From assembly GCA_951406725.2 (NCBI GenBank), contig OX597827.1:23374001-23438000 (forward strand): a stretch of 64,000 nt of DNA. Direction: 5' to 3'. This DNA is from Octopus vulgaris. Its lineage: Eukaryota. A program made the translations under genes and the position numbers. The stretch's first letter is position 1. The number at the start of each line of letters is the position of its first letter. Shown here in pieces: positions 18,395 through 19,273 of this stretch. The notes beneath the pieces were generated by a model that saw only the letters and a list, made by a program, of their open reading frames with translations, was not told the DNA's origin and searched no databases.

Positions 18395-18600
18395 ATGTAT
18401 GCATGCATGTATGTATGTGTGTGTATATGTATGGATATATATATATATACATATATAAATATAAGAGAGTGGTCACTATGTGGCTCACTCTAGCACCAGT
18501 TAATCCAAAAGGTTTCAACCACGAAAATACATGTTTCCCATGAAAGTCAGTACGATTGTTAGCTCACACGGACAGGGCAAATAAAAAATAACAAAAATAC

Positions 18601-18695
18601 AGATTATTTTGGGACAATTGTTTCGCTATTAATGAATTAAATGTAATTTTACTTACAAAAAAAATCCATTTGTAGCTCGTCAGCCAAAACTATCT
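18601..18695 (-). ncRNA. Type I hammerhead ribozyme, intact (copy 1)
   Basis: agatagttttgg-CTGACGA-gcta...tagc-GAAA-caattg-TC-ccaaaataatct: 12-bp stem I with 1 mismatch, G-C closed stem II, palindromic stem III, GUC site (cut 18613/18612). Confidence 0.88.
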
Positions 18696-19135
18696 GGATG
18701 AAATCCACTCAATCACACGCCAGATTTTACCATAACGATAAATACGCGTGTGGTTCAATTGATTACATCCGACGTTATAATTCAAATGCCCCAACTAACA
18801 GCGCGCCAAACTTTCACGGAAAACAAATACAGCATTTAGAAATAAATGCAGCATAATTATAATTAATTAATAAGGGTGAGAGAATTAGATACTAATTTAA
18901 TAGTATATCTATTCAACACCAAGTGGCCTAGTGCTCCGAGAAACCTGGATTATTATAATATTTTATAACATATTATAATATTTTTACAAAATAAATATAA
19001 GAGAGTGGTCACTATGTGGCTCACTCTAGCACCAGTTAATCCAAAAGGTTTCAACCACGAAAATACATGTTTCCCATGAAAGTCAGTACGATTGTTAGCT
19101 CACACGGACAGGGCAAATAAAAATAACAAAAATAC

Positions 19136-19231
19136 AGATTATTTTGGGACAATTGTTTCGCTATTAATGAATTAAATGTAATTTTACTTACAAAAAAAAA
19201 TCCATTTGTAGCTCGTCAGCCAAAACTATCT
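19136..19231 (-). ncRNA. Type I hammerhead ribozyme, intact (copy 2)
   Basis: Same motif as copy 1; cut 19148/19147. Confidence 0.88.
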
Positions 19232-19273
19232 GGATGAAATCCACTCAATCACAATTAGTATTTAAGTAATATG

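What the first reader, a model, noticed from the sequence alone, without database searches (positions are those of the whole stretch)
18455..19253. Candidate retrozyme: tandem hammerhead repeats that would release a 535-nt non-coding RNA
Seen: two ~263-bp direct repeats identical except for two A-run indels, each carrying on the minus strand a complete type I HHR (CUGACGA, GAAA, GUC, 12-bp stem I, long AU-rich stem II, palindromic stem III ACAAUUGU). The cut sites are 535 nt apart, there is no credible ORF, and the flanks are microsatellite. Established: PLE pLTRs and non-autonomous retrozymes carry type I HHRs with palindromic stem III that can act as dimers, and retrozyme transcripts can circularise. 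Inference: a young mobile ribozyme element producing a monomeric or circular RNA and copied in trans by a PLE RT, possibly an undescribed family in this lineage.
Basis: partly seen in the sequence, partly recalled or inferred. Interest (0 to 1): 0.92.

Follow-up and report, generated by a model that had tools for sequence, protein, structure and literature searches.

The report
Self-cutting RNA parasite of Penelope elements
This is one short copy of a young, non-coding jumping element that carries a self-cutting RNA motif, and the way its hundreds of copies are built suggests that they were each copied in one go from a small RNA circle by the enzyme of another jumping gene, an idea proposed years ago that can now be tested directly.

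Summary
The two 263-bp repeats are not terminal repeats: the locus is 1.49 units of a 536-bp non-coding tandem unit with one type I hammerhead per unit. The genome holds 2,121 exact copies of the cut site in at least 831 insertions. Of 109 complete insertions read, nearly all end in (TA)n at one of two fixed points 133 nt apart (A, B), neither at the ribozyme cut; 5' ends are scattered. Head-to-head insertions pair A with B in 62 cases, never A+A or B+B: the Penelope-like (PLE) 'tail' signature, four times longer than reported. Units within an insertion share one haplotype, including private changes in up to 17 of 17 copies and both arms, while insertions differ by about 2%. A 75%-identical sister family keeps the core and covaries in stem I. 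Best reading: a non-LTR retrozyme copied by twin-primed, rolling-circle reverse transcription of a monomer circle (0.68). An intact Hydra-type PLE with the same anatomy is the candidate driver, but shares no alignable sequence. Cleavage, circle and expression are not shown.

The parts
18455..19253 (-). Whole insertion: single-arm, 5'-truncated array of 1.49 units (799 bp), RNA sense on the minus strand
   Evidence: locus L069
18455..18990 (-). One complete 536-bp unit as numbered here (unit position p = 18991 - p)
   Evidence: tandem period 536 in arrays of up to about 15 units per arm
18613..19147 (-). Predicted cut-to-cut monomer RNA, 535 nt; the predicted circle
   Evidence: circle fold -150.2 kcal/mol, z -8.0; cleavage not shown
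19135..19232 (-). Type I hammerhead, upstream copy: stem I 19232-19220 with 19147-19135, core 19219-19213, stem II arm 19212-19160, GAA 19159-19157, palindromic stem III 19156-19149, C17 19148
   Evidence: covariation
18600..18696 (-). Type I hammerhead, downstream copy: core 18683-18677, C17 18613
18455..18475 (-). Fixed 3' end A (unit 536), the end used by this insertion; inferred reverse transcription start
18858..18880 (-). Fixed 3' end B (unit 133), internal and unused here; the other inferred start
18858..18990 (-). 133-nt 'tail' between start A and start B
   Evidence: compared with 30-40 bp in PMC8557442
19250..19253 (-). 5' truncation point (unit 274); no fixed 5' end in the family
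18436..18454 (.). (TA)n microsatellite at the 3' junction, the inferred target
   Evidence: (TA)4 or more within 25 nt of 87 of 89 A ends and 76 of 81 B ends

Best explanation
A non-autonomous, non-LTR retrozyme copied in trans by a Penelope-like element (PLE). Shown from DNA: a 536-bp non-coding unit with a conserved type I hammerhead is inserted at hundreds of (TA)n sites as 5'-truncated tandem arrays with two fixed 3' ends; two-armed insertions always use one end of each kind; all units of an insertion are as a rule one haplotype. Inferred steps: (1) an array is transcribed on the hammerhead strand; (2) the ribozyme, probably slowly or as a dimer through its 8-nt palindrome, cuts out a 535-nt monomer; (3) a host ligase closes it to a circle (known for other animal retrozymes); (4) a PLE protein dimer nicks both strands of a (TA)n target, and the two DNA ends prime reverse transcription inside the RNA, one at A and one at B; (5) each reverse transcriptase runs round the same circle for 0.05 to 15 turns and stops at random; (6) the two cDNAs are joined head to head, mostly by microhomology, or one is lost, which leaves a single arm as in this window. 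The likeliest driver is the young, intact Hydra-type family here called PLE-C (about 0.5; not shown). That the element moves by PLE-type insertion I put at about 0.93; the full model with a monomer circle at 0.68.
For: Copy number and youth: 148 matches in 39 scored of 1,206 candidates, mostly 99% identical; 2,121 exact cut-site 27-mers, 831 B ends and 575 A ends running into TA, reversed-pattern controls 0. Anatomy of 109 complete insertions: head-to-head A+B 62, A+A 0, B+B 0, single A 25, single B 16, other 6; 10 of the 62 were fetched because an A and a B end lay close, which leaves 52 against 0. Two internal start sites and nicking and extension of both strands are what purified Poseidon protein does (PMC11167929); an inverted 5' copy and a tail at one end are PLE marks (PMC8557442). 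The cut linear monomer cannot be the template: 122 of 168 arms are longer than it allows and only 2 of 157 5' breaks lie within 5 nt of the cut. Monomer bottleneck: 280 full units in 75 loci differ by a median of 0 within a locus and 1.9% between loci; 39 fixed haplotypes in 61 loci; 14 changes fixed in one locus and seen in no other locus read, 12 of them in both arms, up to 17 of 17 and 16 of 16 copies. Arrays look made at once: 68 of 82 within-array variants are single against 48.9 expected from successive duplication, 13 of 14 shared ones are not contiguous; array length does not track inner diversity (rho 0.21, P 0.2). The cut-site junction is exact in 348 of 350. Selection on the RNA: a sister family at 74-77% identity differs at 0 of 18 core and stem III positions against 124 of 491 elsewhere (P 0.01); stem I has 4 pairs changed on both sides, the whole fold 18 (shuffles 8.9; slid controls 2-9). 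PLE-C has the same long-stem-II hammerhead with an 8-nt palindrome, (TA)n targets, two ends about 155 nt apart, A+B in both two-armed copies read, and an open 899-codon frame.
Against: No cleavage, circle, RNA end or strand was observed. For this copy the predicted best fold pairs the core with stem III and is 5.6 kcal/mol more stable than the hammerhead fold, so cleavage may be slow; stem I carries a C.A mismatch in 23 of 61 distinct hammerhead sequences. In the one PLE tested in vitro, uncut RNA was the main substrate and the ribozyme was dispensable; 8 of 9 Xenopus retrozyme dimers did not cleave. 'Private' means private among 112 insertions read of at least 831, so a homogeneous unread source array could carry each of them. 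Within the family alone, core conservation is not significant (1 of 18 positions against 80 of 536), and the covariation rests mainly on one deep split; 25 of 163 comparable pairs of the predicted circle fold break in the sister family, whose own circle folds at only z -2.5 with a cruder shuffle. No coding parent was found: no alignable likeness to the 50 GIY-YIG loci read or to PLE-B and PLE-C (score at the shuffle mean). Assembly errors inflate single variants and polishing could smooth arrays; raw reads were not seen. 18 within-array variants at intermediate frequency are not explained by one clean template.
Confidence: 0.68

Rival explanations
1. Same PLE-driven, twin-primed insertion, but the template is a long uncut transcript of an already homogeneous array; the ribozyme acts rarely or in another step.
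For: Uncut RNA was the main substrate of Poseidon in vitro; this copy's core is predicted to be trapped; exact junctions at the cut site and long arms fit it equally.
Against: It does not say how a change that arises in one unit becomes fixed in 16 or 17 units and in both arms, 39 times over in 61 loci; source arrays carry single-unit changes (101 seen) yet only 18 intermediate variants occur, mostly scattered. It needs some other bottleneck.
Confidence: 0.18
2. Short PLE-type insertions were later expanded and homogenised at the DNA level by unequal crossing-over and gene conversion (the satellite route proposed in bioRxiv 10.64898/2026.07.22.740005).
For: A 1.49-unit insertion has a direct repeat that can seed expansion; mosaic arrays such as L068, L212, L220, L213; the model is argued for vertebrate retrozymes.
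Against: Long arrays with no substitution among 16 and 12 full units exist (L214, L221); single variants exceed the successive-duplication expectation and 13 of 14 shared ones are not contiguous; both inverted arms share private changes.
Confidence: 0.07
3. The cut linear monomer is the template and the reverse transcriptase jumps repeatedly from its 5' end back to a 3' end.
For: Gives the same one-haplotype arrays without needing ligation; template jumping by non-LTR reverse transcriptases is recalled, not tested.
Against: Jumps should leave scars and a pile-up of 5' breaks at the cut: 348 of 350 junctions are exact and 2 of 157 breaks are near it.
Confidence: 0.04
4. The copies are terminal-repeat debris of a coding PLE that I did not find, not an element of their own.
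For: Only part of the genome's PLE diversity was read (150 of 6,136 and 130 of 11,446 candidates scored).
Against: 109 complete insertions hold only unit sequence, with unit joined directly to unit in arrays; the sister family is colinear and non-coding over its whole unit.
Confidence: 0.03

Closest known systems
Animal non-LTR retrozymes (coral, mussel, axolotl; PMC7229834) and the vertebrate survey bioRxiv 10.64898/2026.07.22.740005
   Same: Non-coding tandem units with one type I hammerhead each, low GC, strongly self-paired predicted monomer, PLEs in the same genome, dispersed monomers to multimers.
   Different: 536 bp (150-450 bp in PMC7229834; within 51-972 bp of the preprint); 52-nt stem II arm missed by Rfam; no likeness to a pLTR found, whereas 24 of 57 Xenopus families matched known elements; the parts of those papers that I read do not describe fixed ends, A+B pairing or per-array haplotypes, and propose the circle template without genomic evidence of this kind.
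Endonuclease-bearing Penelope-like elements: Poseidon of Anolis (PMC11167929), Hydra clade (PMC8557442)
   Same: 5' truncation, partial tandems, inverted 5' arm, tail at one end only, two internal start sites, (TA)n targets, hammerhead upstream of the 3' ends.
   Different: No RT or GIY-YIG frame; tail 133 nt against 30-40 bp reported (the coding Hydra-type families here also have about 155 nt).
MRC1 and other non-autonomous Chlamys elements of Chlamydomonas (PMC8557442, section 10)
   Same: Non-autonomous, multi-copy head-to-tail insertions attributed to PLEs.
   Different: Those resemble their autonomous partner at the 3' end and most Chlamys lack hammerheads; here there is a hammerhead and no partner likeness found.
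Plant LTR retrozymes (PMC4918200, search listing and abstract start only; described in PMC7761336 passages)
   Same: Two hammerheads flanking a non-coding monomer that could circularise.
   Different: Type III ribozyme, true LTRs, Gypsy-type ends; here type I, tandem units and PLE-type ends.

Membership tests
Non-LTR retrozyme | Type I hammerhead in each repeat unit | tested here: met
   (325 of 331 cores keep G8 and A9); no Rfam hit
Non-LTR retrozyme | Head-to-tail tandem units at many loci, no true LTRs | tested here: met
Non-LTR retrozyme | No protein-coding frame | tested here: met
   longest ATG frames 54 and 52 codons; no RT frame joined to 60 end-anchored loci
Non-LTR retrozyme | Strongly self-paired predicted monomer, GC under 50% | tested here: met
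   z -7.3 and -8.0; GC 0.33 over 18001-19000
Non-LTR retrozyme | Unit of typical size (descriptive, not defining) | tested here: inconclusive
   536 bp is above 150-450 bp and inside 51-972 bp
Non-LTR retrozyme | Self-cleavage as monomer or dimer | not testable with these tools
   only predicted; trap fold 5.6 kcal/mol below the hammerhead fold, palindrome duplex -6.4
Non-LTR retrozyme | Circular RNA accumulates in vivo | not testable with these tools
   only assembled contigs were served
Non-LTR retrozyme | Target-site duplication longer than 4 bp when present | tested here: inconclusive
   targets are (TA)n, so duplications cannot be read
PLE-type insertion (works like) | 5' truncation with fixed 3' ends and partial tandems | tested here: met
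PLE-type insertion (works like) | Inverted 5' copy and a tail at only one end | tested here: met
   62 A+B, 0 A+A, 0 B+B; tail is 133 nt, not 30-40
PLE-type insertion (works like) | Microsatellite (TA)n target | tested here: met
   87 of 89 A ends, 76 of 81 B ends
Autonomous PLE | RT plus GIY-YIG reading frame | tested here: not met
Derivative of a named PLE family | Sequence likeness to the pLTR of an autonomous element | tested here: not met
   none to PLE-A and other GIY-YIG loci, PLE-B or PLE-C; most PLE candidates unread
Plant LTR retrozyme | Type III hammerhead inside true LTRs | tested here: not met
   type I, tandem units; PBS and PPT not tested
Hydra-clade PLE (for the candidate driver PLE-C) | DKT for DKG, RWK-like motif, CxxC and CxH in the C-terminal nuclease, hammerhead, (TA)n | tested here: inconclusive
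   DKT, RWL, CxxC, CxH, hammerhead and (TA)n read by eye; Pfam gives no RT or GIY-YIG hit; no tree built

The most novel reading that the evidence does not exclude
These arrays are a fossil record of rolling-circle, twin-primed reverse transcription: two PLE reverse transcriptases start at two set points 133 nt apart on one ribozyme-made RNA circle and each runs round it many times. The same holds for the coding Hydra-type PLE-C (two adjacent 3.6-kb units with 0 substitutions between them and 18 shared differences from four other copies), so the pseudo-LTRs and tandems of hammerhead-bearing PLEs would come from circular RNA templates. The scattered repeats of one substitution within an array would be misreadings of a single modified or damaged base met on every turn.
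Probability: 0.4. Interest if true: 0.85.

Novelty: new variant of a known kind. Interest (0 to 1): 0.64.

Why it matters
How animal retrozymes move, and why PLEs come as tandems with a tail on one side, are open questions: a circular template was proposed in 2014 (PMC4209133) and 2020 (PMC7229834), a DNA-level satellite route in 2026, and the one in vitro study found the ribozyme dispensable. This family gives countable evidence that bears on the choice (strict A+B pairing, one haplotype per insertion, exact junctions, no break at the cut) and supplies the reagents for a direct test: a 535-nt RNA, two mapped start sites, a (TA)n target and an intact candidate enzyme in the same genome. A reverse transcriptase that writes multi-kilobase arrays from a small circle into a defined microsatellite would also be of technical interest.

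Tried and rejected
Rfam: no hammerhead hit at either threshold. tRNA scan of the window: none. The bacterial promoter scan is not applicable and was at chance level. Expression: no RNA holder listed; four runs guessed to be RNA were laid, all as contigs, which cover the unit and in three runs bridge the cut site, but cannot show ends, strand or level and may hold DNA; not used as evidence. Terminal-repeat reading of the two 263-bp copies: rejected. Cut linear monomer as template: rejected. Parent search: PLE-A, a young 781-codon RT plus GIY-YIG family with (TA)n targets and a tail of about 36 nt, has no likeness to the unit and no hammerhead found by my scan; PLE-B and PLE-C align to each other but not to the unit; a hammerhead pattern search returned the sister family, family variants and one further family, no coding parent among the 7 loci read of 23 hits. 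An apparent closeness of the two 5' breaks (17 of 62 within 25 nt) faded for long arms (5 of 30 against 2.9) and the breaks do not face each other in the predicted fold (5 of 66 against 4.0): rejected. Dropped before counts: short hits to the unit's inner palindrome, 3 incomplete insertions of 112, 37 overlapping loci of 149, segments over 9% divergent and columns within 3 of a gap. The scan's earlier notes had nothing on this sequence or genome. Repbase and Dfam could not be searched, so the family may be listed there as an unclassified repeat.

Full report
Observation. The repeats, both hammerheads, the 535-nt spacing and the lack of a reading frame are as described. A scan of my own found three type I hammerheads with 10 or more stem I pairs in the window and none in 10 shuffles. 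Rfam has no matching family at gathering score or at E up to 10. The genome is a 2.8-Gb animal assembly in 227 contigs; that it is an octopus is my recall from its repeats and was not tested.

What the locus is. A DNA search of the genome gave 148 matches in 39 scored of 1,206 candidates, mostly 99% identical and often spaced 536 bp apart. The window copy is 1.49 units of a 536-bp tandem unit, so the two 'repeats' are the overlap left by 5' truncation. Exact patterns count 2,121 cut sites, 831 B ends and 575 A ends (one subset of A spellings), with reversed controls at 0; as an insertion has at most one B end, there are at least 831 insertions. Twenty of 24 listed public runs, under three organism codes and nine studies (one possibly the source), hold 78-100% of the unit's words.

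Anatomy of insertions. I read 149 loci, 112 distinct insertions, 109 complete: 39 best DNA matches (biased to long, window-like copies), the first pattern hits on contigs 1 and 2, and 20 that I chose, 10 for close A and B ends and 10 for arrays. 3' ends in the hammerhead sense fall at unit 536 (A, window 18455) or unit 133 (B, 18858); (TA)n follows 87 of 89 A ends and 76 of 81 B ends. 5' ends are scattered. Classes: head-to-head A+B 62, A+A 0, B+B 0, single A 25, single B 16, three head-to-head with one off-register end, two complex, one single with an odd end. Without the 10 chosen pairs it is 52 to 0. Of 70 inversion junctions, 43 overlap by at least one base, 14 are blunt and 13 have extra bases. 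In 21 of 62 both arms exceed one turn; arms reach 15 units. This is the PLE pattern: inverted 5' copy and a tail at one end (PMC8557442, passages and sections 10, 11), explained in vitro by two internal start sites and extension of both nicked strands by a predicted dimer (PMC11167929, main text). The tail here is 133 nt against 30-40 bp there.

Which RNA is copied. From a cut linear monomer, cDNAs could be at most 158 nt (A) or 291 nt (B); 122 of 168 arms are longer, and 2 of 157 5' breaks lie within 5 nt of the cut, about 3 being expected. The template is therefore a circle or an uncut multimer. Units within an insertion are one haplotype: median difference 0 (mean 0.19%) within against 1.9% between loci for 280 full units; 39 fixed haplotypes in 61 loci; of variants at sites with three or more copies, 360 are fixed, 101 single and 18 intermediate; 14 fixed changes are private to a locus among those read, 12 spanning both arms, up to 17 of 17 copies. 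A change arising in one unit can be fixed through an array only by a one-unit bottleneck or by later homogenisation. Against gradual DNA expansion: 68 of 82 variants are single (48.9 expected, P 5e-6, though assembly errors push the same way), 13 of 14 shared ones are not contiguous, and arrays with 16 and 12 full units have no substitution at all. Against template jumping: 348 of 350 cut-site junctions are exact. A monomer circle fits all of this; a long transcript of an unread homogeneous source array is not excluded.

Is the ribozyme under selection. Within the family, 325 of 331 cores keep G8 and A9 and most change is at the free position N7, but the test lacks power. A pattern search found a sister family (13 of 23 hits) that is 74-77% identical over its whole unit, non-coding, with the same two ends and targets in the six loci read. 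Between the families 0 of 18 core and stem III positions differ against 124 of 491 others (P 0.01). In 12 aligned units stem I shows 4 pairs changed on both sides and the predicted whole fold 18, above shuffles and slid controls; these rest mostly on one split and the structure came from one of the sequences, and 25 pairs break. For this copy a competing helix is predicted 5.6 kcal/mol below the hammerhead fold, while two palindromes can pair at -6.4: slow or dimer-dependent cleavage, which would protect a monomer circle but would also let multimers survive.

Who copies it. Three coding families were examined. PLE-A: young, 781-codon RT plus GIY-YIG frame, (TA)n, tail about 36 nt, no hammerhead found. 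PLE-B: older, a fragment lies in this window at 48960-49770, with a long-stem-II hammerhead, an 8-nt palindrome and two ends about 150 nt apart used head to head. PLE-C: related to B, young, 899-codon open frame in many copies, the same ribozyme type, ends 63-66 and 218-221 nt after the cut, A+B in both two-armed copies of five read; it shows Hydra-clade motifs by eye but has no Pfam hit. Two adjacent PLE-C units differ by 0 substitutions and share 18 differences from four other copies. None aligns with the retrozyme above shuffle level, so PLE-C is a candidate by anatomy only.

Comparison and novelty. The class is known: non-LTR retrozymes (PMC7229834, part 2 of 6, sections 14 and 17 and passages), argued to derive from PLEs (bioRxiv 10.64898/2026.07.22.740005, parts 1-3 of 5). 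A circular template for more-than-unit cDNA was proposed in PMC4209133 and PMC7761336 (passages). In eight searches I found no paper on a cephalopod retrozyme, on tails of 130-155 nt, or on per-array haplotypes as evidence for the circle; a 2026 octopus repeat annotation has no 'ribozyme' or 'retrozyme' in its main text (passages; supplement not read). Subscription papers, supplements, Repbase and Dfam were not seen, and PMC5785218 was not held. Verdict: a new family and variant of a known class, of interest mainly because its insertions speak to an open mechanism. Interest 0.64.

Noticed in passing
window 48960-49770 (+): 5'-truncated coding PLE (PLE-B): end of the nuclease frame, a long-stem-II type I hammerhead (C3 49478, C17 49550) and a 3' end in (TA)n; 3,256 candidates in the genome, copies 85-94% identical, two ends about 150 nt apart.
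   Followed up: yes
L238-L242: PLE-C, a young family with an open 899-codon frame, Hydra-type motifs, a tail of about 155 nt and identical 3.6-kb tandem units; missed by Pfam.
   Followed up: partly
L130-L146: PLE-A, a young family with a 781-codon RT plus GIY-YIG frame overlapped by an upstream frame, a tail of about 36 nt, repeated CCAAT- and CRE-like boxes in its terminal repeat, and no hammerhead found by my scan.
   Followed up: partly
L243-L248: Sister retrozyme family of about 516 nt, 74-77% identical, same ends and targets, mostly short copies.
   Followed up: yes
L249 and L138: A further long-stem-II hammerhead family with a similar palindromic stem III, seen head to head and ending in (TA)n; not resolved as coding or not.
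   Followed up: no
L068, L212, L213, L220, L224: The same substitution recurs in non-adjacent units of one array (for example every fourth unit in L212); could be repeated misreading of one template base, gene conversion or assembly noise.
   Followed up: partly
window 14142 (-): A short PLE-type hammerhead-like motif with a 4-bp stem I and a minimal palindrome in another repeat.
   Followed up: no
window 18219-18330 (+) and 50872 (-): Another repeat beside the finding with a CUGANGA word, ending in (TA)n; its contigs are several times deeper than the retrozyme's in the four runs laid.
   Followed up: no
window 27902-29314 and 52844-54307 (+): Reverse transcriptase frames of 470 and 487 codons (Pfam RVT_1), probably LINEs.
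   Followed up: no
window 31835-32179, 32672-33024, 40410-40724: Tandem repeats with periods 184, 184 and 39 bp.
   Followed up: no
window 18798-18812 (-): An E2F-like word (recalled consensus) lies in the body of the unit; the promoter of the element is unknown.
   Followed up: no
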